A stretch of 63,034 nt of DNA. Origin: an uncultured Bacilli bacterium. Lineage in GTDB: Bacteria; Bacillota_I; Bacilli_A; RF39; UBA660. Positions within the stretch are counted from its first letter, which is position 1. The number at the start of each line of letters is the position of its first letter. The position numbers and the translations under genes were made by a program. Below, one piece after another: positions 37,756-53,790 of this stretch. The DNA lies in NCBI GenBank assembly GCA_944358145.1, contig CALVQO010000001.1:1-63034 (forward strand), given 5' to 3'. The notes beneath the pieces are model-generated. The model was not told the DNA's origin. It did not search any database and saw only the letters and a program-made list of their open reading frames with translations.

Positions 37756-38494
37756 GAAACATAAGATCCTTCCAAATTAAATCATAATAATTAGCAAAAT
37801 TTTTATCTTTTCTGTTTTCAATTGGTGTTCCTTCTTTTTCTCTTTTAATTTTATAAATATTTTTAATGGTACATGGTCTATCACTTAATACGATTACTCT
37901 ATCTGAAATACTTATTGCTTCGGCTAAATCATGAGTAACCATTAGAGCTGTTTTCCCTTCCTCTTTAATAATTTTATAAACATCATCACTTACCTTTAAT
38001 CTTGATTGGTAATCTAGTTTTGAAAATGGTTCATCAAGAATTAATATGTCTGGTTTAAGTGCTAGAGTACGAATTAAAGCTACTCTTTGTCTCATTCCTC
38101 CTGATAATTCAAAAGGACGTTTATCCATAAATTCTAATAATCCATATTTTTTAAATAAATCTTTTACATAGGCTATGTTTTCTTCTGTTTTTTCTTTTTT
38201 TATTTCTAAACTTAGTAGGGCATTGTCTATTACTTTCCTCCAAGATAACATGGAATCGCTTTGAAGCATATATCCTAGTTTTAGATTTTCTTTAAGTTCA
38301 ATATTTCCTTTAGTTAGATTATCCATATTCGTTAATATATTTAAAAGGGTTGATTTACCACAACCTGATGGCCCTACAATAGATACAAATTCACCTTCAT
38401 ATAAATCAAATGAGATATCCTTTATAGCTTCTATTTCATCTTTTTTATTGTAATAAACTTTGTTTAGATTTTTAACACTTAATAATTTATTCAT
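37748..38494 (-). CDS. ABC transporter ATP-binding protein (NitT/TauT family)
   Basis: Walker A GPSGCGKST, signature LSGGMRQR, Walker B ILILDEP. Confidence 0.9.
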   Translation of the reverse strand: MNKLLSVKNLNKVYYNKKDEIEAIKDISFDLYEGEFVSIVGPSGCGKSTLLNILTNMDNLTKGNIELKENLKLGYMLQSDSMLSWRKVIDNALLSLEIKKEKTEENIAYVKDLFKKYGLLEFMDKRPFELSGGMRQRVALIRTLALKPDILILDEPFSKLDYQSRLKVSDDVYKIIKEEGKTALMVTHDLAEAISISDRVIVLSDRPCTIKNIYKIKREKEGTPIENRKDKNFANYYDLIWKDLMFHE

Positions 38495-39371
38495 CTAAAT
38501 TATGAATTAAATCACTATAAGGGACATAATCTTCAAGTAAATTGTTGTCAATTAACATATCTTGTAAATTAGTAAAACTACTCTCTGTTATATATGGTGT
38601 AGATAGCCATGAATCATATTTTTTATAATTATCAATGATGGTAATGATATCATTTAGAGCACTATCTGGAAATTGTGGTAATATTACATTTGCAGTAGTT
38701 TGGCTATCATTATTTAGAACGAATTCTAAACCTTTAGCGATAGCTCTAGTAAAACCACTTAATAATTCTTCATTGTTTTCTAAATAGCTTTTACGAGTAT
38801 AGAAGGCTGTATATGGTACTTCACCAGAAAGTCTTCCAATAGAATCAACAATACAAGAATCTGATACGTTTACTACTGTTGTTGCAGTAGGTTCAAATAG
38901 ATTTACATAGTCTCCAATTCCACCAATAAATGATCCAGATAGACTAGCAAAATCAATTGAGTAATTTACATTAATTTTATTTACATCAATACCAGCATTT
39001 TTCATGGCGTTTAAGAAGTTAACTGCAGGCATTCCTCCAGCACGACCAACAAGTATTTCACTACCATAAAGGTCAGTAAGTTCAAATTCACTTGAACAGT
39101 CTCTTGCTAAAATGAATTGTCCATCTCTTTTAGTAAGTCCTGCAAAAGTTACTAAATAATCTTTTTCACCACCAGCATAAACATAAATAGATGATTCAGT
39201 ACCAGCAAAACCTACATCAACAGTATCAGACAAGACTGCTGCACTAACTTTGTCTGCACCACTAGTTAAGATTAAATCAATTTCTATTCCTTCCTCTTCA
39301 AAATAACCATTTTCAATTGCTACATACAACGGAGCATAAAAAACACTATGTGTTACTTCTGCTACCATCAC
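38487..39371 (-). pseudogene. NMT1/SsuA-like substrate-binding protein gene, 5-prime truncated by element insertion
   Basis: The frame starts inside the mature domain (..AEVTHSVFYAPLYVAIENGYFEEEG) with no signal peptide or lipobox. An in-frame stop lies 10 codons upstream at 39402-39404. The recombinase gene end overlaps its first 26 nt. Confidence 0.7.
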
Positions 39372-41052
39372 ATTGTGGACACTTTTGCTTAGAAGAAGAG
39401 CCTATAAGATTTATATACAGATTTTCTCCATCGGATTCTACAGAACTAATTAGCATTTTAATCATCAATCTTTTTTCAACGATATCTAATGTATCAAATG
39501 ATTCCATATAATTTTTAATCATGTCTAATGCAATTTTTGCCATTTGTTTTTGGTCTATTTCAGCATCAATTTCTTTATTCATTTCAGCTATTCTTTTTTC
39601 TATTTCATTATTTTTGGATTTTAAATCTTTAATTTGAAGTGCAACTTCGTTAATTATTTCAGGATCTATAATTGCCATTCTATCTATTAATGTTTCAATT
39701 TTCATTTTATTTTTAGTAAAAGTAGCATTTAAGGTTTGTAATTCAGTTTGTTTTTTTGTTGATTCTTTTTCACGACCTGATGCCAAATCCTCTAATCGTT
39801 TCATAAATTCACTTTTTGGAGAAGTTATTTCTTTAAGTTTTTGTATAACTAGTTTATCTGTTTCTATTCCATTAATATTTTTACATTGGCATTGTTTCTT
39901 TCTACTTTTATCTTTTAATTCACATAGATAACTAAAATTTCTTTCTCCATTTGAAGCGATGGAATTTCTTAATCTTGGTCGCATATAACTTCCACAGTGT
40001 TTACATTTTATTATGCCTGATAATATAGATGTGTTTTGTTGAGGAGCTCGTAGTCGTTTGTTTTGATTGTTTGTTATTAAATTCCATACACTTATAAATT
40101 GATCGCTAGTAATTAAACCATTATGTTTACCAACTGCAATAATCCATTCATTAATATCTTTAAATGATTTTGCTTTTCCTGTAATTTCTAATCTTTTATT
40201 ATAAGCTATAAGCCCTAATTTTTTGTCATAAATATTTTTTTTATTTTGCTCATTGCTATTATGATATATAGTAGCACCTTTTTCTTCAAAAAAATTGTTT
40301 ATTTTCTCATCTGCTATAACATATACTGGATTTTTAAAAATTGTGACTAAAGAAAATCTACTAAAGTTATTTCCATTTCTTGTTTTAATACCATTATTTA
40401 ATAAATAAGTTTCTAATTTTGATAATCCTTTTAATTCTAACATTTTTGTCCATAGTAATTTAATTGTTTCAGCTTCTTCAGGAATAACATCTAATTTATA
40501 TAAACTTCTTTTTTTACCATCTATATCTATAGTTTCTATTTTTTGTGATTTATATCCTAAAGGAGTATTTCCACCTAACCATCTTCCTGTTTTTGCAAGT
40601 TCATACATATTATCCCTTATTCTTTCTGCAATAGTATCTCTTTCTAATTGTGCAAAAACAGATGATATCATAAGCATTGCAACACCCATTGGAGTCGAAG
40701 TATCAAAATTTTCTGTTACTGATATAAATTTTACATCATATTGCAATAATTCATTTTTTAAATTACAAAAATCCGCTACATTTCTACTTATTCTGTCTAG
40801 TCTATAAACAATAACACATTGAATTTTGTTTTTCTTGATATCAGTCATTAATTTTTGTAATTGGGGTCTATTAGTATTATATCCTGTAAATCCTTCATCA
40901 GAATATATTTTAATATCTTCATCTTTTGCATTAAATTTTGTTATTAAAGTATTTTTACAATATTCTATTTGATTATCGATACTTTCGCCTTTACCTGTAA
41001 ATTTTGATTTTCTTGCATATACACCATAATATTTTTTTTCGTTATTTTCCAT
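39346..41052 (-). CDS. large serine recombinase (integrase of the element)
   Basis: N-terminal resolvase domain YGVYARKSKF..GESIDNQ with the catalytic Ser, a recombinase domain, Cys-rich zinc ribbon (CKHCGSYM ... C..C) and a coiled coil. 568 aa from ATG 41052. Confidence 0.9.
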   Translation of the reverse strand: MENNEKKYYGVYARKSKFTGKGESIDNQIEYCKNTLITKFNAKDEDIKIYSDEGFTGYNTNRPQLQKLMTDIKKNKIQCVIVYRLDRISRNVADFCNLKNELLQYDVKFISVTENFDTSTPMGVAMLMISSVFAQLERDTIAERIRDNMYELAKTGRWLGGNTPLGYKSQKIETIDIDGKKRSLYKLDVIPEEAETIKLLWTKMLELKGLSKLETYLLNNGIKTRNGNNFSRFSLVTIFKNPVYVIADEKINNFFEEKGATIYHNSNEQNKKNIYDKKLGLIAYNKRLEITGKAKSFKDINEWIIAVGKHNGLITSDQFISVWNLITNNQNKRLRAPQQNTSILSGIIKCKHCGSYMRPRLRNSIASNGERNFSYLCELKDKSRKKQCQCKNINGIETDKLVIQKLKEITSPKSEFMKRLEDLASGREKESTKKQTELQTLNATFTKNKMKIETLIDRMAIIDPEIINEVALQIKDLKSKNNEIEKRIAEMNKEIDAEIDQKQMAKIALDMIKNYMESFDTLDIVEKRLMIKMLISSVESDGENLYINLIGSSSKQKCPQCDGSRSNT

Positions 41053-41112
41053 AACAATCAACTCCTATGTCATTGATTATTATATCACATCATGGTATCA
41101 TAAGGAATCTTT

Positions 41113-41140
41113 TTTAAAAAAAATAGTTTATAAAAAACTA
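41113..41140 (-). terminator. terminator after the NUDIX gene
   Basis: Minus strand TAGTTT-loop-AAACTA followed by T8. Confidence 0.5.
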
Positions 41141-41578
41141 TTTAATAGAATAACCTAATTTCTCTAATGCTAGTATGGTAAATGGAGATAGTTGTTTCTT
41201 GTTTAATTCATTTATGCTATACCAATTTGCACCGTCTGAATCTAGTCCATCTGCATCATTTTTTAAAGTATTCTCATTAGTATCTACTGTATATAAGATA
41301 CCTACGTGATGTAAATCTTCCCATAAATCAGGTTCCATTTCCCACTTAATATTAGTAGCAACAGCATCAAGTAATTTGTAGTTAGTTATGCCTATTCCAG
41401 CTTCTTCCATTATCTCTCTTTTTAAAGTTTCAAAAGGTTGTTCAGTATGTTCAATCCCGCCACCTGGTAGATCTAGCTTTCCTTTATAACCACCTCTAGC
41501 TTTTCTTACAAGGGCAATTTTATTATCACTAATAATTATACCATATGCTCCTACATGAGTTTTAACAATTGTTTCCAT
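41138..41578 (-). CDS. NUDIX hydrolase
   Basis: Nudix box GGGIEHTEQPFETLKREIMEEAGI. The METIV start is 8 nt after AAAGGA. Confidence 0.85.
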   Translation of the reverse strand: METIVKTHVGAYGIIISDNKIALVRKARGGYKGKLDLPGGGIEHTEQPFETLKREIMEEAGIGITNYKLLDAVATNIKWEMEPDLWEDLHHVGILYTVDTNENTLKNDADGLDSDGANWYSINELNKKQLSPFTILALEKLGYSIK

Positions 41579-41859
41579 TGTTTTCATCCTTTCTTTTACT
41601 ATTTTAACATAAATACAAGCGAGATGGCAGTAATATTTCACTTATGTGTGTACGTGGAACTTTAGCCAAGTGGTAAGGGTAAGGCAGGGGACTTTAATTA
41701 TTTTTATTGCCTAAAAATCAAAATTGACAGATTATTGTTTCAACAATACAAAATAAATAAAAATAATTTGCAATAAAATATATTATTTTAAATATTATTA
41801 TACATTTAAAAAACTCTTAAAATTAAAATTTTAAGAGTCAAATATTTCTTTAAAAATTA

Positions 41860-42963
41860 TTAATTTTTCTTTTTCCTAGTAAGAGTAATTAGAGGTACCA
41901 GATACTCATTTTCAGTTAAACCTGAATGATTAGATAATAGCTCTTTTCCATATCTTCTATATTTAAGATTCTTATCACTTATAGCTATTGCAATAAAATT
42001 TCCTAGACAAGATTTAAACATATTGTGATTAATACCTAATCCAAAAAGCTGAAGTGATAAAATATCTTCTTGCTTTAATAGTATAAAGTTTGAACCAAAT
42101 TGCTTTTCAAATTCAGTTTTAAAGTAATCAATTTTATCTTCTTTAATAAATAGCATACACGCTCTAGAGTCTATTGAAGTTGTCTGAGATAAACAATTAA
42201 AAAGATTAGGGTAATCTTCAAGATAAATATAACTTGAGTTCGTTAATCCATGATCAGCAGTTATAAGTATCAGACTATCATTTAAACTATTGTATAAATA
42301 TTTTATTGTTTTTTCTATCAACTTCAAATTCTCTTGTGTTTCAAAAGATTCCGTTCCTGTTTTATGAATAATTGAATCAGGATTTTCGTAATAAGCGTAA
42401 ATAAAATTTCTCTCATCGTTATCACATAATTGTATAATTTTTTCACACATATCATCTAATCCATTATAATGAGTTCCGGCATAAGGTGATAGATAAGTTG
42501 CATTAAATATTGTTTGTGCATTAATTAAATCAAAAATAGTAGTATAAGGGAAATACTTCATACCTATATTTTCAGGAAATAAATTTTTCGTATCTTTCTC
42601 TGTATTTAAAAACAAAGTTACAACTTTATCAATAGGTTTGATATAATTATCCCATCCAAGCCAACAATGTTGATTTGGATATAATCCAGTAATAATAGAA
42701 GTGGTGGCGGCTGTTGTAGTGGTTGGAAAAACAGAATATAATGTCTTTTTTATATTGCTAAATAATAGAGGACAGCTTTTTGAATATGTTTTAAGTAAAT
42801 TCATGCCCATTCCATCACATAAAATCAAAATAACATTTTTAGGCTGATTTCTTAACAAAATTTCATCTATCTCAAAATTAGAGTCGTTGATAGCTTTTAA
42901 GCCAAAATATTTTAATATGGAATTTGGAATTCCAACTATCGATTCTTTATAGTTTATAAACAT
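41860..42963 (-). CDS. alkaline-phosphatase-superfamily metalloenzyme (NPP/PglZ-like phosphodiesterase or phosphatase)
   Basis: ILILCDGMG, FPTTTTAATTSIITGLYPNQH (nucleophile Thr region), NPDSIIHKTG, ITADHGL and SNHSGLTENEYLVPL. Its ATG directly abuts the stop of the viperin gene (TAGATG). Confidence 0.7.
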   Translation of the reverse strand: MFINYKESIVGIPNSILKYFGLKAINDSNFEIDEILLRNQPKNVILILCDGMGMNLLKTYSKSCPLLFSNIKKTLYSVFPTTTTAATTSIITGLYPNQHCWLGWDNYIKPIDKVVTLFLNTEKDTKNLFPENIGMKYFPYTTIFDLINAQTIFNATYLSPYAGTHYNGLDDMCEKIIQLCDNDERNFIYAYYENPDSIIHKTGTESFETQENLKLIEKTIKYLYNSLNDSLILITADHGLTNSSYIYLEDYPNLFNCLSQTTSIDSRACMLFIKEDKIDYFKTEFEKQFGSNFILLKQEDILSLQLFGLGINHNMFKSCLGNFIAIAISDKNLKYRRYGKELLSNHSGLTENEYLVPLITLTRKKKN

Positions 42964-43788
42964 CTATCTGTAAAATCTTTCAAATGCTCTTTTTCTGACT
43001 AAATGATTTGTTAAGTCTATATTTTTAATGCACTCATCAATAGAACTTTCTAAAATGTTACAAGTTACTTTTCCAGCATTATCTTTTAAATCTCCATTTG
43101 GAAAAATGCTGAAATATGTAGTTTTAAATTCTTCAAAATCATTAAAATCTACCTGAGTATCCGTTATAGGCATTTTTTTAATTATTTCTGTTAGATTTAA
43201 ATATTCTTGATCACTTATGTTAAATTCTTCTTGATTATCAACAGCTTTATATGTTATTGGATAATATCTAAAAATTTTCCATCTTTTAATATCATAATGT
43301 TTCAAAATTTCCCAAATTAGTGGGATATGATTTAAATTTTGCTTAGTAGCCACTGTATTTACTTTTAAGTTAATTTTGCCATTAAATCTACTTAAATTTT
43401 TAATCGCTTTTCTTAAATGTTCTTTGCCTCTACCTACTTTTATATGGTATTCTTCACTAGGCGATTCAATATCAAAAGTAATCCAGTCAAATAAAGAAAT
43501 AATTATTTCTGACATCTCATCATTTATAAGCAGTCCATTTGTAGTTAATGAAAGTAAAATGCTTGGCTTTTTTTCTCTAATATATCTTGCAAGTTCAAAT
43601 AGTCCTTCATATAGTAATGGCTCGCCACCTGCAAAAGTGATTTTTTCTACTCCATGTTCAATTAATTTATCAGCAATTTTTTTGTTATCTTCTAGTGATA
43701 AATCTTCTGATAATGTTCTATAGCAGAACGTGCAGTTTTCATTACATTTTTCAGTAATGTTCCAACATACAGAATAAATTTTATTCAT
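42964..43788 (-). CDS. prokaryotic viperin homolog (pVip), radical SAM
   Basis: It aligns by eye block-for-block with human viperin. VCWNITEKCNENCTFCYRT matches VNYHFTRQCNYKCGFCFHT. GVEKITFAGGEPLL matches GMEKINFSGGEPFL. FDIESPSEEYHIKVGRG matches ISCDSFDEEVNVLIGRG. IKRWKIFR matches VRWKVFQ. Confidence 0.8.
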   Translation of the reverse strand: MNKIYSVCWNITEKCNENCTFCYRTLSEDLSLEDNKKIADKLIEHGVEKITFAGGEPLLYEGLFELARYIREKKPSILLSLTTNGLLINDEMSEIIISLFDWITFDIESPSEEYHIKVGRGKEHLRKAIKNLSRFNGKINLKVNTVATKQNLNHIPLIWEILKHYDIKRWKIFRYYPITYKAVDNQEEFNISDQEYLNLTEIIKKMPITDTQVDFNDFEEFKTTYFSIFPNGDLKDNAGKVTCNILESSIDECIKNIDLTNHLVRKRAFERFYR

Positions 43789-43874
43789 TTTTCCTCCTTT
43801 TTTCTGAATATTTTACTATAATATTGCAATTTGTCAAGTTAAGATTTATAATAATAGTGATTTGGGGGATTTTT

Positions 43875-44414
43875 ATGATAGGACTAAAAACTGATATGGT
43901 AGAATTACTTCCATATGATTATACTTGGAAAGATGAATTTCAAAAAATGAAAAAAGATATTGAAATGGCATTAAATGGTTATACTTTCGATATTCAACAT
44001 GTTGGTAGCACTTCAATTGAGGGATGCCCAGCAAAACCAGTTATTGATATTAATATTGGTATTGAGTCGTTAGAATATGGAAATCAATTAGTTCCTTTGT
44101 TAATAAATATAGGTTATATTTATAAAGGCGATGATGGTATACCTGGAAGACACTATTTTAAAAAGCAAGAAAATGGTGTTACTGTATCTCATATTCATAT
44201 GTGTCCAATAGGCGATGAAATTTGGAAAAATCAAATTTTGTTTAGAGATTATATGCGAGAACATCCCGAACAACTACAAGAATACATAGAATTAAAGAGA
44301 AAATTAGCTATTTTATATCCTACAGATCGTGCTAGCTATTCTTTAGGCAAGAAAAATTTTATTGAAAATATTTTGGTAGAAGCAGAAGCTTTAAAAAGAA
44401 GCAGAAAAAAATAG
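43875..44414 (+). CDS. GrpB family (nucleotidyltransferase-fold) protein
   Basis: VELLPYDYTWKDEF ... IQHVGSTSIEGCPAKPVIDI is the GrpB signature. ATG 43875 follows GGGGGA. Confidence 0.8.
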   Translation: MIGLKTDMVELLPYDYTWKDEFQKMKKDIEMALNGYTFDIQHVGSTSIEGCPAKPVIDINIGIESLEYGNQLVPLLINIGYIYKGDDGIPGRHYFKKQENGVTVSHIHMCPIGDEIWKNQILFRDYMREHPEQLQEYIELKRKLAILYPTDRASYSLGKKNFIENILVEAEALKRSRKK

Positions 44415-44426
44415 GAGGTTATATAT

Positions 44427-44906
44427 ATGAATTCTGATATAACATTTGAAAGTGAAAATATGGTTTTTAATTTTCGAGTAGCTACTGTTATTAAAAATGG
44501 TGATAAAATATTGGTACAGAAAGATGATCGGGTTTCTCATGTCACTTTACCTGGTGGAAGATGTTCTTTAGGTGAGGATACTACTGAAACTTCAGTAAGA
44601 GAATTTAAAGAAGAAACTGACATTAATTGCTTATTTGTAAAATCACTAGGTATGATAGAAAATTTTTTCGTATCCTCTTTTAATGGAAAAAAATATCATG
44701 AAATTTTAATGATTAATGAAATAAAATTCGTTGATCATAATTTATATTCTATGAAGGAAATTCCAAATATTGAAGAAAAGAAAAAAGAGCATTTAAAATT
44801 TGTTTGGATGACTCAAGAAGAATTGAAAAATTCCAATTTCAAGCCAAACATAATTTTAGAAATAATTAATAATGATGGCTTTACTCATTTAATTAATAAG
44901 GATTAA
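44427..44906 (+). CDS. NUDIX hydrolase (second copy, divergent)
   Basis: Nudix box PGGRCSLGEDTTETSVREFKEETD. RBS AGGAGG. Confidence 0.85.
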   Translation: MNSDITFESENMVFNFRVATVIKNGDKILVQKDDRVSHVTLPGGRCSLGEDTTETSVREFKEETDINCLFVKSLGMIENFFVSSFNGKKYHEILMINEIKFVDHNLYSMKEIPNIEEKKKEHLKFVWMTQEELKNSNFKPNIILEIINNDGFTHLINKD

Positions 44907-44919
44907 ATGAGTTTTTTAA

Positions 44920-45213
44920 TTTTATGGTGTACTTTTTATTGCTTTAAGCGGTAAAGAATGTTTGGAGTTAGTTCAAAAAAATAATTATGATATTATTTTT
45001 TTGGATATTATGATGTCAGAAATGAGTGGAGTAGAAACGTTTAAATTGTTAAAAGAAAAGAATCAATTTGATACCCCTGTAATTGCTTTGACTGCCGATG
45101 CTGACATTGATTCTAAAGAGAAATATTTGGCTTTAGGATTTGATGGTTATATTCCTAAACCTATAAATATTGAATTATTAAAAAAAGGATTAAGTAATTG
45201 GCTTAATCAATAA
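44920..45213 (+). pseudogene. 5-prime-truncated response-regulator receiver (REC) domain fragment
   Basis: The frame reads ..ALSGKECLELVQKNNYDIIFLDIMMSEMSG...PVIALTADA...GFDGYIPKPI. It lacks strand beta-1 with the acidic pocket, and a stop lies immediately upstream. Confidence 0.6.
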
Positions 45214-51140: not shown

Positions 51141-51926
51141 TTAATTTCTTGATCTTATCCTAATCTTATAATTATTTTCATTCAAATGCACATCTCTTTT
51201 AGCATAACTATATAAATTTTCTATTGCATTCATTTTTTCATGTTGTGTTTTTTGATTATTTAAATCTAGTGCATCAATGTATAAATTTATAAATTCTTGC
51301 TCTGGTACAGTTTTAAAAATTGCCTCTCTATATCCAGTTTGATCTGTATATAATTTTAAAGTTTTTGAAGTAGATATCTCGGGGAAACCATATAATCTAT
51401 GATAAAACTTTTTTATTTTCTCAATAGTTAAATGATATAGATGATTAAAGTACAAATCGCCATGTTCATACAAAGATTTTAAGTCTATCATTCTATTATT
51501 AATTATAGAAACCATTTCTTTAGCTTCTTCATCACTTAAGCAAGGCATTGGTAGTGAGTATAATTCTCTAATGTATTCTTGAAGTTTATGAACTCTGCCA
51601 TTACGATCAAAAATAATAATTCCATGTCCTATCATGCTTAGTAGAACATTGCTTTGGCTCTCAAAATCTTTAATCGCTCTAGCATAATAATCTAATATTG
51701 GTTTTTCAAAGTATTCTATTCTAATTCCATCTACTAAATCAATACCTCGTGCTAAATTATTTGGATCTTCACTATTTGTAATTACTTGCAAATCCAAATC
51801 GGAAGTTTTAGTAGCATATCCAGTTGCTACACTTCCATAAAATACAACACCCTCAATATTCTTATTTTCAAGATACCCCTTTTCATTCAAGAAAGTTTTA
51901 ATTACTTCCGTGAATGTTTTTGTCAT
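51141..51926 (-). CDS. pol-beta-superfamily nucleotidyltransferase (ANT/Lnu-like architecture)
   Basis: GVVFYGSVATGYATKTSDLDLQV is the GS...D.D NTase motif, followed by a helical C-terminal domain. 261 aa. Confidence 0.65.
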   Translation of the reverse strand: MTKTFTEVIKTFLNEKGYLENKNIEGVVFYGSVATGYATKTSDLDLQVITNSEDPNNLARGIDLVDGIRIEYFEKPILDYYARAIKDFESQSNVLLSMIGHGIIIFDRNGRVHKLQEYIRELYSLPMPCLSDEEAKEMVSIINNRMIDLKSLYEHGDLYFNHLYHLTIEKIKKFYHRLYGFPEISTSKTLKLYTDQTGYREAIFKTVPEQEFINLYIDALDLNNQKTQHEKMNAIENLYSYAKRDVHLNENNYKIRIRSRN

Positions 51927-53037: not shown

Positions 53038-53790
53038 ATGGATTATTTAATTTCACAAAATATTAAGTTTGATGCTATTATAACTGATCCGCCTTATGCA
53101 GTTACAAATTTTAGTTGGGATCAAATTATTCCTTTTGATGCAATGTGGGAAAGACTTTTAAAATTAATAAAAGATGATGGGGCTATTGTTTTGTTCGGCA
53201 ATGAACCATTTTCTAGTAATTTAAGGAAAAGCGGTGAGGAATATTATCAATATGATTGGAAATGGATTAAAACACAAGTAACTGGTTTTGTTAATGCTAA
53301 ATATCAACCATTAAGATGTTATGAAGATATTATGATTTTTTCTAAATCTGGTGTAGTTCCAAATTGTTCCAAAACTATGTGTTATTATCCGCAGGGGTTA
53401 ATTCCTGTACATATAAAAAGTAAGCCAAAGCCTACCTTTTCAAAGGGCAAAAATTGGCATTTTAACAAATCAAAGGAATACATTAAAGAATACGAAAATT
53501 ATCCTCGTAATGTATTACAATTTGCTAGAGAATCTATTCTTTATCATCCTACTCAAAAGCCATGCAATTTAATGGAATATTTGATTTTAACTTATACTAA
53601 AAAAAATGAAATAGTATTAGATTTCACTGCTGGTAGTGGTTCTACTTTAATTGCTAGTGAACTATTAAATCGTAGATGGATTGGAATTGAAATTACGGAC
53701 AAATATTGTGAAGTTATAAAAAAAAGAATTGAAAATGGACTACAATTAAAAATCGATTTTGAAAATGATTTATCAAAGGAGGAAGATTAA
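53038..53790 (+). CDS. orphan DNA N6-adenine/N4-cytosine methyltransferase (true start probably upstream, about 52978)
   Basis: IITDPPY catalytic motif, HPTQKP, and SAM-binding DFTAGSGST. The conserved N-terminal LYKGDCLEVM block lies upstream of the first ATG. Confidence 0.85.
   Translation: MDYLISQNIKFDAIITDPPYAVTNFSWDQIIPFDAMWERLLKLIKDDGAIVLFGNEPFSSNLRKSGEEYYQYDWKWIKTQVTGFVNAKYQPLRCYEDIMIFSKSGVVPNCSKTMCYYPQGLIPVHIKSKPKPTFSKGKNWHFNKSKEYIKEYENYPRNVLQFARESILYHPTQKPCNLMEYLILTYTKKNEIVLDFTAGSGSTLIASELLNRRWIGIEITDKYCEVIKKRIENGLQLKIDFENDLSKEED

What the first reader, a model, noticed from the sequence alone, without database searches (positions are those of the whole stretch)
41138..44906. Prokaryotic viperin translationally coupled to an alkaline-phosphatase-superfamily enzyme, flanked by two NUDIX hydrolases and GrpB
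The 274-aa radical SAM protein aligns block by block with vertebrate viperin: the CxxxCxxC loop CNENCTFC, FAGGEPLL, DIESPSEEYHIKVGRG and RWKIFR. It is therefore very likely a pVip that makes 3-prime-deoxy-3-prime,4-prime-didehydro-NTP chain terminators. Described pVips are usually solitary or paired with nucleotide kinases. Here its stop codon is fused to the start of an AlkP/NPP/PglZ-like metalloenzyme (TAGATG at 42961-42966). The pair is surrounded by two different NUDIX hydrolases and a GrpB nucleotidyltransferase-fold protein, all on ICE cargo. One reading is a defence module in which pyrophosphatase and phosphatase partners process or detoxify ddhNTPs, or convert them to a diffusible ddh-nucleoside. 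Another is a PglZ-like effector coupled to viperin signalling. I am not aware of this gene combination having been characterised.
Basis: partly seen in the sequence, partly recalled or inferred. Interest (0 to 1): 0.8.

Follow-up and report, generated by a model that had tools for sequence, protein, structure and literature searches.

The report
Viperin-like enzyme in conserved nucleotide-processing cassette
A mobile four-gene block in uncultured gut bacteria pairs a divergent relative of the antiviral enzyme viperin with three enzymes that cut or transfer nucleotide phosphates, which suggests an undescribed pathway that makes and then processes a modified nucleotide.

Summary
All five ORFs, the quoted motifs and the TAGATG junction are present.

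- **The radical SAM protein is viperin-like, not a confirmed viperin.** It has the viperin fold (TM 0.84-0.86, full length), and viperin is by far its best HMM match. But it scores below NCBIfam's curated viperin cutoff (142 vs 180 bits). It sits in a separate clade (89% bootstrap) from threshold-passing viperins (77%).
- **Its active site is partly changed.** It keeps the columns aligned with viperin's triphosphate-binding residues and base-pocket Asn. It replaces several viperin-invariant residues (His to Asn10, Ala to Arg24, Glu to Asn216, Asp to Phe229).
- **The conserved unit is a four-gene cassette.** GrpB and NUDIX are transcribed divergently from rSAM and an NPP-type phosphodiesterase. 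It occurs complete in five independent lineages and contexts, chromosomal and mobile.
- **The partners are specific to this cassette.** Their nearest non-cassette relatives all stand alone.
GrpB-NUDIX is a more constant partner than the AlkP enzyme. The second NUDIX (41138-41578) is not part of the unit. The PglZ reading is rejected. Stop-start fusion occurs only in this lineage.

The most likely function is radical modification of an NTP (ddhNTP-like) followed by hydrolytic processing, carried as accessory cargo. A defence role is inferred, not shown.

The parts
42964..43788 (-). Viperin-like radical SAM enzyme (274 aa), a member of a 'C8-W9-N10...R24' clade outside the curated viperin family
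   Evidence: NF038283 gives 142 bits against a cutoff of 180, and the next-best family gives 74 bits. PADLOC pVip gives 140 bits. The AF2 model has pLDDT 95, and the top 18 Foldseek hits are all viperins at TM 0.84-0.86. Residue comparison is and clade support.
41860..42963 (-). NPP-type (AlkP-superfamily) nucleotide pyrophosphatase/phosphodiesterase, 367 aa, with no obvious signal peptide
   Evidence: Pfam Phosphodiest scores 71 bits. D50, T82/T83, D196, H200, D237, H238 and H346 are invariant across 61 homologs. The AF2 model has pLDDT 97, and the best folds are ENPP5/1/3/4 at TM about 0.65.
43875..44414 (+). GrpB-family protein (nucleotidyltransferase fold, biochemically uncharacterised); the ORF could also start at the TTG at 43824
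   Evidence: Pfam GrpB scores 160 bits. The best PDB match is 2nrk, 'hypothetical protein GrpB'. It is conserved next to the rSAM gene in every assessable lineage.
44427..44906 (+). NUDIX hydrolase 2 (159 aa), co-operonic with GrpB, with an intact Nudix box
   Evidence: Pfam NUDIX 2e-11. The box G-RCSLG-E-DTTETSV-RE-F-K-EE is readable in the translation. Its weak best NCBIfam matches are NTP-type pyrophosphohydrolases. It is conserved with GrpB at 58-67% identity in all lineages.
43789..43874 (.). Divergent promoter region between the rSAM-NPP and GrpB-NUDIX2 operons
   Evidence: A TTGACA-16-TAAAAT site (11 of 12 matches) faces the rSAM gene, and a TTGCAA-17-TATAAT site faces GrpB. The TTGAC...TA(T/A)AAT block is conserved in six lineages.
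41808..41839 (-). Terminator-like hairpin plus U6, 21 nt after the NPP stop codon
   Evidence: Seen in the sequence. The fold gives dG -11.9 kcal/mol and z -2.4 against shuffles.
41138..41578 (-). NUDIX hydrolase 1: an adjacent, lineage-specific neighbour that is not part of the conserved cassette
   Evidence: Pfam NUDIX 2e-15. It is found only in the window and the 97% twin L013, and it lies beyond the terminator-like hairpin.
39346..41061 (-). Large serine recombinase at the left end of the mobile element that carries the cassette (context)
   Evidence: It carries Resolvase, Recombinase and Zn_ribbon_recom domains. It overlaps the N-terminally truncated NMT1 binding-protein gene at 38487-39371.

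Best explanation
This is a conserved, horizontally mobile four-gene cassette found in uncultured gut Bacilli. It consists of two back-to-back operons.

One operon encodes a viperin-like radical SAM enzyme followed by a cytoplasmic NPP-type pyrophosphatase/phosphodiesterase. The other encodes a GrpB nucleotidyltransferase-fold protein followed by a NUDIX hydrolase.

Proposed mechanism:
1. The rSAM enzyme binds a nucleoside triphosphate in a viperin-type pocket. It uses a 5'-deoxyadenosyl radical to modify the ribose, most likely by a viperin-type 3'-dehydration that gives a ddhNTP-like analogue. This step is inferred.
2. The NUDIX and NPP enzymes then cleave the phosphoanhydride bonds of the product (NTP analogue to NMP analogue plus PPi, and possibly further). 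This sets the phosphorylation state and pool size of the analogue. This step is inferred from family chemistry.
3. GrpB may transfer the nucleotidyl group to an acceptor. This step is speculative.

The cassette is accessory cargo on ICE-like and other mobile elements. I take its most probable biological role to be anti-phage or anti-mobile-element defence through a nucleotide analogue.

Shown here: gene content, conservation, the viperin-like fold, retained and replaced residues, intact catalytic sites in NPP and NUDIX, and mobility.
Inferred: the substrate, the product, the order of steps and the defence role.
For: **Linkage**
- The complete cassette occurs in five independent lineages and contexts: window/L013, L001-3, L004-6/L016, L015 and L052-53. 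Across them the rSAM proteins are 66-73% identical, NPP 52-61%, GrpB 52-66% and NUDIX2 58-67%.
- Identical longest-contig lengths across the three homolog searches (13145, 10446, 9691, 4588, 3505, 7865) suggest further co-resident sets.
- The nearest non-cassette relatives of every component stand alone: rSAM at 48% identity or less, NPP at about 40%, and GrpB at 47-51%.
- The divergent promoter is conserved.

**The rSAM enzyme**
- It has the viperin fold over its full length.
- Viperin is the best HMM match by a two-fold margin.
- It conserves the columns aligned with mouse K120, R194, K220, N222, R245, K247 and Y302, and the beta8-loop Asn (N237) at the mouse C314 column. Shomar et al. (10.1101/2023.09.13.557418) describe that Asn as the marker of promiscuous prokaryotic viperin pockets.

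**The partners**
- NPP has a full bimetallo site with a Thr nucleophile, and its best folds are ENPP enzymes.
- The Nudix box of NUDIX2 is intact.
- Lineage-specific additions are also phosphotransfer enzymes: a ribokinase-family PfkB kinase 6 nt after NUDIX2 in L001, and a HAD-IIIC-like phosphatase in L014, the lineage that lacks NPP.

**Mobility and accessory status**
- A serine recombinase and conjugation-type genes lie in the window.
- Mob_Pre and AbiEi/AbiEii lie next to the cassette in L001.
- The solitary relatives also sit beside serine recombinases.
Against: - The rSAM protein fails the curated viperin threshold (142 vs 180 bits). It lies in a different clade from validated-type viperins (89% vs 77% bootstrap support; sister relation unresolved at 4%).
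- It replaces viperin-invariant residues that probably line the active site (His to Asn10, Ala to Arg24, Glu to Asn216, Asp to Phe229, Arg to Asp/Thr233). The product may therefore not be a ddh-nucleotide.
- Known pVip partners are kinases that supply substrate (12% of bacterial viperins, Shomar et al.), not hydrolases that would destroy the active triphosphate.
- NUDIX and NPP appear chemically redundant under this model, and GrpB has no assigned role.
- Apart from AbiE in L001, no recognised defence genes flank the cassette. PADLOC finds only HTH regulators and an orphan methylase nearby in the window. In L004 the neighbours are housekeeping genes.
- No homolog was found in the phage collection, and there is no experimental data.
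Confidence: 0.45

Rival explanations
1. Canonical prokaryotic viperin. The rSAM protein is an ordinary ddhNTP-producing pVip, and the neighbouring hydrolases are bystander cargo with no functional link.
For: Viperin models are the top hits, and PADLOC-style detection would label the protein pVip. The fold is viperin. The triphosphate-binding columns and the base-pocket Asn are retained. Relatives at 45-48% identity are solitary, like most pVips.
Against: It scores below the curated cutoff, while true viperins score 230-287 bits. It forms a separate, well-supported clade. Several viperin-invariant residues are replaced. The partners are conserved across five contexts, while everything else around them changes. 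The partners' nearest relatives are not linked to each other.
Confidence: 0.15
2. Biosynthesis of a diffusible nucleoside analogue. The rSAM enzyme makes a modified NTP. NUDIX, then NPP or a HAD phosphatase, strip the phosphates to release a membrane-permeable nucleoside. That nucleoside acts outside the producer as an antiviral or antibacterial agent, or as a public good. GrpB or the PfkB kinase provides self-protection or recycling.
For: All conserved partners remove or transfer nucleotide phosphates rather than add them. A HAD-type phosphatase appears where NPP is missing. A near-consensus, conserved sigma70-type promoter suggests constitutive expression. In one lineage the cassette sits among housekeeping genes rather than in a defence island.
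Against: No exporter gene is conserved with the cassette. NPP-family enzymes typically cleave diesters and pyrophosphates, not monoesters. The HAD substitution is a single case with a borderline score. There is no precedent for a viperin-type enzyme in secreted-metabolite biosynthesis in the literature searched.
Confidence: 0.2
3. Different chemistry. The CWN...R clade is a viperin-like radical SAM family with a different substrate or outcome. Examples would be a nucleotide-sugar or dinucleotide substrate, or epimerisation or reduction using the clade-invariant Cys8 as hydrogen donor. The cassette would then serve a metabolic or cofactor role unrelated to chain termination.
For: His to Asn10 and Asn/Ser to Cys8 fall on strand beta1. 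My alignment puts MoaA's GTP-binding Arg17 in the same column (the PDB entry title for 2fb2 appears). Other invariant viperin residues are replaced. Other members of the wider CW radiation lie in biosynthetic-looking contexts, such as Peptidase_U32, methyltransferase and ATP-grasp in L011. NUDIX enzymes act on many nucleoside-diphosphate-X compounds.
Against: The columns aligned with viperin's triphosphate-binding basic residues, Tyr and base-pocket Asn are all retained. The distribution is patchy and mobile, which is atypical for core metabolism.
Confidence: 0.15
4. A PglZ-like effector coupled to viperin signalling.
For: There is a marginal local Pfam PglZ hit (27.8 bits, residues 183-240) and weak PADLOC PglZ hits.
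Against: Phosphodiest scores 71 bits over residues 44-252. The BREX PglZ NCBIfam model gives 22 bits against a cutoff of 270. The best folds are ENPP enzymes, and no PglZ structure is in the top 50. No BREX genes are nearby. The PglZ match covers only the metal-site core shared across the superfamily.
Confidence: 0.02

Closest known systems
Prokaryotic viperins (pVips; NCBIfam NF038283; Bernheim et al. 2021; Shomar et al. 2023 preprint 10.1101/2023.09.13.557418)
   Same: Same fold, including the C-terminal extension (TM 0.84-0.86). Same CxxxCxxC and GGEP motifs. Same length class. Conserved columns aligned with the triphosphate-binding Lys/Arg residues and Tyr, and with the beta8-loop Asn. Carried on mobile elements.
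   Different: Only 25-33% identical to threshold-passing viperins. Below the curated score cutoffs. A separate clade. The N/S-x-His motif on beta1 is replaced by Cys-Trp-Asn. Viperin-invariant Ala, Glu, Asp and Arg are replaced, and the C-terminal Trp is lost. The partners are hydrolases and a GrpB protein rather than NMP kinases.
Viperin-kinase modules (pVip with CMPK-like kinases; human viperin-CMPK2)
   Same: A nucleotide-modifying radical SAM enzyme genetically linked to nucleotide-metabolism enzymes. One lineage (L001) adds a kinase.
   Different: The conserved partners here act in the opposite direction, cleaving phosphoanhydride or diester bonds. The L001 kinase belongs to the PfkB/ribokinase family, not the NMP kinases.
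NPP/ENPP nucleotide pyrophosphatase/phosphodiesterases (Pfam PF01663)
   Same: A complete bimetallo site with a Thr nucleophile, and an ENPP-like core fold.
   Different: Small (367 aa) and apparently cytoplasmic. TM is only about 0.65 and identity under 20% to solved ENPPs. The Asn of the ENPP 'FPN' motif is replaced. It belongs to a large uncharacterised Firmicute family whose other members stand alone.
GrpB/UPF0157 family (PDB 2nrk; C-terminal domain of mycobacterial CoaE)
   Same: A clear family member (160 bits).
   Different: No GrpB protein has an assigned catalytic function. Here it is in a fixed pair with a NUDIX hydrolase next to a viperin-like enzyme, and its close relatives elsewhere do not share that pairing.

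Membership tests
Viperin / pVip (NF038283, PADLOC pVip) | Radical SAM CxxxCxxC cluster motif and GGEP SAM-binding motif | tested here: met
   C15, C19, C22 and G54-G55-E56-P57 are invariant across 69 relatives.
Viperin / pVip (NF038283, PADLOC pVip) | Whole-protein score at or above the curated family cutoff (180 bits) | tested here: not met
   The query scores 142.3 bits. Clade relatives score 130-166 bits, and true viperins score 230-287 bits. On PADLOC pVip models the query scores 140 bits against 210-298 for true viperins.
Viperin / pVip (NF038283, PADLOC pVip) | Viperin fold including the C-terminal extension | tested here: met
   The AF2 model has pLDDT 95.1. The top 18 PDB matches are viperins at TM 0.84-0.86 over 263-288 columns, and the next family reaches at most 0.74.
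Viperin / pVip (NF038283, PADLOC pVip) | Basic residues and Tyr that bind the NTP triphosphate (mouse K120, R194, K220, R245, K247, Y302; the roles are from my own knowledge of the mouse structures) | tested here: met
   K49, R120, K142, R169, K171 and Y225 are conserved in the clade and in true viperins.
Viperin / pVip (NF038283, PADLOC pVip) | Asn/Ser-x-His motif on strand beta1 (mouse N77, H79) and the other viperin-invariant columns | tested here: not met
   The clade has invariant C8-W9-N10. In addition, Ala becomes R24, Glu becomes N216, Asp becomes F229, Arg becomes D/T233, and the C-terminal Trp is lost.
Viperin / pVip (NF038283, PADLOC pVip) | Conserved Asn in the beta8 loop at the mouse C314 column (the promiscuous prokaryotic pocket of Shomar et al.) | tested here: met
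   N237 lies in the column where 11 of 14 true viperins have Asn. The profile alignment to T. virens and engineered mouse-loop structures places it at the C314/R257 column.
Viperin / pVip (NF038283, PADLOC pVip) | Branches within the clade of validated or curated viperins | tested here: not met
   In the NJ tree of 229 sequences the query clade has 89% support and the true-viperin clade, including four PGAP-annotated proteins, has 77%. Their sister relation has 4% support, so it is unresolved. This is an NJ tree on a biased sample, so an ML tree with the published pVip clades is still needed.
Viperin / pVip (NF038283, PADLOC pVip) | Produces 3'-deoxy-3',4'-didehydro-NTP and protects against phage | not testable with these tools
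   Requires enzymology, LC-MS and phage challenge.
NPP / Phosphodiest (PF01663) | Score above the Pfam gathering threshold over most of the domain | tested here: met
   71.1 bits against a cutoff of 23, covering residues 44-252.
NPP / Phosphodiest (PF01663) | Two-metal site (Asp, Asp-His, Asp-His, His) with a Thr nucleophile | tested here: met
   D50, T82/T83, D196, H200, D237, H238 and H346 are invariant in 61 sequences. The alignment to ENPP1/3 places them at the catalytic motifs.
PglZ (BREX / PorX type) | Full-length match to PglZ models and association with BREX or regulatory partners | tested here: not met
   There is only a 58-residue local Pfam match (27.8 bits). The NCBIfam BREX PglZ model gives 21.9 bits against a cutoff of 270. 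No PglZ fold is in the top 50, and no BREX genes are present.
NUDIX hydrolases (PF00293) | Nudix box GX5EX7REUXEEXGU | tested here: met
   NUDIX2 reads GRCSLGEDTTETSVREFKEETDI, where only the final Gly is replaced by Asp. NUDIX1 reads GGIEHTEQPFETLKREIMEEAGI.
GrpB (PF04229) | Full-length match to the family model | tested here: met
   159.8 bits, covering 157 of 159 profile positions. PDB 2nrk matches at 5e-21.
Integrative conjugative element cargo | A terminal integrase, conjugation genes, and interruption of a host gene | tested here: inconclusive
   The serine recombinase abuts a truncated NMT1 binding-protein gene. A TrbL-like gene, an adhesin, a sortase and an orphan methylase lie downstream. 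The right end of the element and the att sites were not found inside the window.

The most novel reading that the evidence does not exclude
The cassette is a previously unrecognised four-enzyme pathway. A non-canonical viperin-like radical SAM enzyme makes a modified nucleotide, which may differ from the known ddhNTPs. A dedicated NUDIX, an NPP and a GrpB nucleotidyltransferase then convert it into a different active species, such as a released nucleoside or a nucleotidylated conjugate. This would give the GrpB family its first function and extend viperin-type immunity from a single enzyme to a multi-step metabolite pathway.
Probability: 0.25. Interest if true: 0.8.

Novelty: new variant of a known kind. 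Interest (0 to 1): 0.62.

Why it matters
Viperins are among the few immune enzymes shared by bacteria and humans. So far they are known to work alone or with kinases that feed them substrate.

A conserved, mobile cassette that links a viperin-like enzyme to three nucleotide-phosphate-processing enzymes points to regulated production, conversion or export of a nucleotide analogue. That logic has not been described for this family.

It also marks out a sizeable viperin-like clade (56 clusters at 50% identity with E at or below 1e-30) that automated tools would either call pVip or leave as a generic 'radical SAM protein'. Its chemistry is untested.

It gives a concrete genomic handle on GrpB, a widespread family with no known function.

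New nucleotide analogues from such pathways are also of practical interest as antiviral chain terminators.

Tried and rejected
1. **tRNA-like fragment at about 41650-41700.** I suspected an att-site remnant. ARAGORN and Rfam (E at or below 1) gave no tRNA match, so I dropped it.
2. **Repeats bounding the cassette or element.** Only AT-rich matches at chance level were found.
3. **PglZ reading.** Rejected by the HMM and fold comparisons.
4. **Searches for the cassette in plasmid and phage records.** At the DNA level only a 157-bp GrpB match was found. At the protein level only canonical viperins at 25-32% identity appeared in plasmids, and nothing in phages.
5. **Literature on viperin with NUDIX, GrpB or phosphatase partners.** Nothing relevant was found. 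The key structural papers (Fenwick 2017 and 2020, Lachowicz 2021) are not held. The roles I give to individual viperin residues therefore rest on my own knowledge plus Shomar et al.
6. **Residue-defined groups as clades.** Exact monophyly was never recovered, because a broad 'CW-x' radiation surrounds them. I replaced this with bootstrap support for the tree-derived clades.
7. **A recurrent partner gene among the solitary 45-48% relatives.** None was found apart from serine recombinases.
8. **GrpB-NUDIX as a general gene pair.** It is not one: three non-cassette GrpB loci lack a NUDIX gene.
9. **Model coordinates.** These are not exposed to scripts, so I could not measure distances between the replaced residues and the substrate pocket.

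Full report
**1. Observation**

The region holds five ORFs as described.
- NUDIX1: 41138-41641, minus strand, with a probable start at 41578.
- An AlkP-superfamily gene: 41860-42963, minus strand.
- A 274-aa radical SAM gene: 42964-43788, minus strand.
- GrpB: plus strand. The ORF opens at 43824, but the likely start is the ATG at 43875.
- NUDIX2: 44427-44906, plus strand.

The quoted peptide motifs are all in the translation. The rSAM stop codon abuts the AlkP start codon, reading TAGATG on the minus strand at 42966-42961. The Pfam assignments are unambiguous.

A near-consensus promoter (TTGACA-16-TAAAAT) faces the rSAM gene, and a second one faces GrpB. The two gene pairs are therefore divergent operons.

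A 10-12 bp hairpin followed by U6 lies 21 nt after the AlkP stop codon. This separates NUDIX1 from the operon.

**2. Is the radical SAM protein a viperin?**

Evidence in favour:
- Viperin is the best family by a wide margin. NF038283 gives 142 bits and the next rSAM family gives 74. PADLOC pVip gives 140 bits over the full length.
- A high-confidence AF2 model (pLDDT 95.1) matches solved viperins in its top 18 hits, at TM 0.84-0.86 over the whole length. The next family reaches at most 0.74.

Evidence against:
- The score is below NCBIfam's curated cutoff of 180 bits.
- Calibration shows two tiers. Threshold-passing viperins, which are only 25-33% identical to the query, score 230-287 bits on NF038283 and 210-298 bits on PADLOC. 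The query and all its relatives down to about 35% identity score 130-170 bits.

The column-by-column comparison shows what is kept and what is replaced.
- Kept: the Fe-S and SAM motifs. Also kept are the columns aligned with mouse K120, R194, K220, N222, R245, K247 and Y302. In the query these are K49, R120, K142, N144, R169, K171 and Y225.
- Replaced: residues that are invariant in true viperins. The beta1 motif N/S-[FWY]-H becomes C8-W9-N10. Ala becomes R24, Gly becomes T104, Asn becomes A182, Glu becomes N216, Asp becomes F229, Arg becomes D/T233, Phe becomes H262, and the C-terminal Trp is lost.

A profile alignment to the solved structures puts the query's N237 at the column of mouse C314 and T. 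virens R257. True prokaryotic viperins have Asn at that column (11 of 14). Shomar et al. (10.1101/2023.09.13.557418) identify this Asn as the hallmark of the promiscuous prokaryotic pocket.

The same alignment shows that the His column varies naturally among viperin-like enzymes. PDB 9dfn has Phe there, and 9dfu is its F40H variant.

In my alignment, MoaA's Arg17 falls in the column of the query's C8. Arg17 is one of the residues mutated in PDB 2fb2. This position is therefore substrate-proximal in related enzymes.

**3. Phylogeny**

An exhaustive search of 1.84 billion cluster representatives found 56 clusters at E of 1e-30 or lower, and 1985 at 1e-10 or lower.

I built an NJ tree of 229 sequences. 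It included these representatives, the word-index hits, four PGAP-annotated 'viperin family antiviral radical SAM proteins' fetched from plasmids, and 21 MoaA-like outgroups. Bootstrap support from 200 replicates was:

| Clade | Sequences | Support |
|---|---|---|
| Cassette tier | 24 | 96% |
| Query clade, including the solitary relatives at 45-49% identity | 45 | 89% |
| True viperins | 23 | 77% |
| Sister grouping of the query clade and the true viperins | - | 4% |

The query therefore belongs to a distinct viperin-like clade. Its position relative to canonical viperins is unresolved. The sample is biased towards the query and NJ is crude, so an ML tree with the published pVip clades is still needed.

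**4. The conserved unit**

The layout NUDIX<-GrpB<-|->rSAM->NPP recurs in five independent lineages whose surroundings are unrelated.

| Lineage | Setting |
|---|---|
| Window and its 97% twin L013 | ICE-like element |
| L001-3 | Mobile element with Mob_Pre and AbiEi/AbiEii; carries an extra PfkB kinase and an acyltransferase |
| L004-6 / L016 | Chromosomal, between NrdD/Mur-ligase and Dus/PRPP-synthase genes in a goat-caecum Bacilli MAG |
| L015 | Rabbit MAG |
| L052-53 | Followed by homologs of the window's 359-aa HTH and 240-aa genes |

Matching longest-contig lengths across the three homolog searches suggest further instances.

One lineage (L014/L017) lacks the NPP gene, and L014 keeps GrpB-NUDIX2-rSAM. 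In L014 a HAD-IIIC-like hydrolase follows NUDIX2. This may be a non-orthologous phosphatase replacement, but it is a single case with borderline scores.

NUDIX1 is found only in the window and L013.

The spacing between rSAM and NPP is 0 nt only in the window lineage. Elsewhere it is 24-57 nt.

The divergent promoter is conserved in all six lineages.

The nearest relatives of each component outside the cassette stand alone.
- rSAM at 48% identity or less. Several of these sit beside serine recombinases.
- NPP at about 40% identity.
- GrpB at 47-51% identity.

The four-gene assembly is therefore specific to this clade. It is not a by-product of common gene pairs. All hosts are uncultured gut 'Bacilli' MAGs.

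**5. The partners**

The AlkP-like protein is an NPP-type enzyme.
- Phosphodiest scores 71 bits, against a 58-residue local PglZ hit of 28 bits.
- The BREX PglZ model gives 22 bits against a cutoff of 270.
- All seven bimetallo-site and nucleophile residues are invariant across 61 homologs.
- The AF2 model (pLDDT 96.9) matches ENPP5/1/3/4 best, at TM about 0.65. No PglZ structure is in the top 50.
- It has no evident signal peptide, so it is probably cytoplasmic.

NUDIX2 has an intact Nudix box. Its weak best matches are NTP-type pyrophosphohydrolases.

GrpB is a clear family member, but the family has no assigned catalytic function.

**6. Context**

On the left, a large serine recombinase gene overlaps the truncated 5' end of an NMT1-type binding-protein gene, which belongs to an ABC-transporter operon. 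On the right lie HTH regulators, a Pol-beta nucleotidyltransferase, an orphan DNA methylase, a thioester/SpaA adhesin, a sortase and a TrbL-like protein. This fits an ICE with the cassette in its accessory region. The element's right end lies outside what I could define.

**7. Mechanism**

The most economical reading has three steps.
1. The rSAM enzyme binds an NTP, as viperin does, and modifies the ribose by radical chemistry. A ddhNTP-like product is the default expectation, because the fold, the triphosphate-binding site, the Tyr and the base-pocket Asn are all retained.
2. The NUDIX and NPP enzymes hydrolyse the product's phosphoanhydride bonds.
3. GrpB may transfer the nucleotidyl moiety to an acceptor.

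The replaced active-site residues leave real room for a different substrate or product.

The defence role is inferred from the family relationship and the mobile-element carriage. It is not supported by dense defence-island context. Only AbiE in L001 points that way.

The hydrolase partners are the opposite of the known kinase partners. That makes either product processing and export, or pool control, more likely than substrate supply.

**8. Novelty**

No paper in the searchable library links viperin with GrpB, NUDIX or NPP partners. Shomar et al. list only kinases and a few eukaryotic fusions as partners.

I rate this as a new variant of a known kind. It is a viperin-like enzyme outside the curated family, embedded in an undescribed and conserved multi-enzyme cassette. 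Its narrow host range and the lack of any functional data temper the score.

Noticed in passing
window 44962-45213 (+): An 83-aa response-regulator receiver fragment lacks its first 34 or so profile positions and any upstream domain. It is 47% identical to the C-terminal receiver of the intact hybrid histidine kinase that lies two genes from the cassette in L001. This suggests an inversion or rearrangement scar at the NUDIX2 end of the cassette.
   Followed up: partly
window 38487-39371 (-) and 39346-41061 (-): The NMT1-type ABC-transporter binding-protein gene lacks its N-terminus and overlaps the 3' end of the large serine recombinase gene by 26 nt. This is probably the integration junction of the mobile element.
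   Followed up: partly
L014 161-673 (-): In the lineage that lacks the NPP gene, a 170-aa HAD-IIIC-like hydrolase with an FDFDNT motif follows NUDIX2 on the same strand. It may be a non-orthologous phosphatase replacement.
   Followed up: partly
L001 4043-4867 (-) and 7985-9013 (+): This lineage extends the cassette. A ribokinase-family PfkB kinase lies 6 nt after NUDIX2, and a PlsC-type acyltransferase follows the NPP gene. AbiEi/AbiEii and Mob_Pre are nearby.
   Followed up: partly
L060 1595-2419 (+) and L059 1837-2469 (+): A PGAP-annotated true viperin on a Thiodictyon plasmid sits directly after an inositol-monophosphatase-family gene. An Anabaena viperin sits after a deoxynucleoside kinase. 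Phosphatase partners may therefore also exist for canonical viperins.
   Followed up: no
L018-L020, L022 (upstream of the rSAM gene): The solitary relatives at 45-48% identity recurrently lie next to one or two large serine recombinase genes. That places them at the ends of mobile elements, like the window's cassette.
   Followed up: partly
L013 2068-3155: In the 97%-identical MAG contig, the NPP gene matches in two pieces in different reading frames that meet near position 2925. This is either a frameshift or an assembly error.
   Followed up: no
window 51141-51926 (-): A lone minus-strand 261-aa Pol-beta-type nucleotidyltransferase has weak PADLOC PDC-S09 similarity. It sits among plus-strand element genes, and an orphan N6/N4 DNA methylase lies at 53038-53790.
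   Followed up: no
L011/L012 6001-11133: A viperin-like clade member at 42% identity is followed by Peptidase_U32, a methyltransferase-like gene and an ATP-grasp gene. This is a biosynthetic-looking context, which suggests the wider CW-type clade has diverse roles.
   Followed up: no
window 41650-41700: A stretch that looks by eye like the 5' half of a tRNA was not recognised by ARAGORN or by Rfam at E of 1 or lower. It is probably a chance resemblance.
   Followed up: yes
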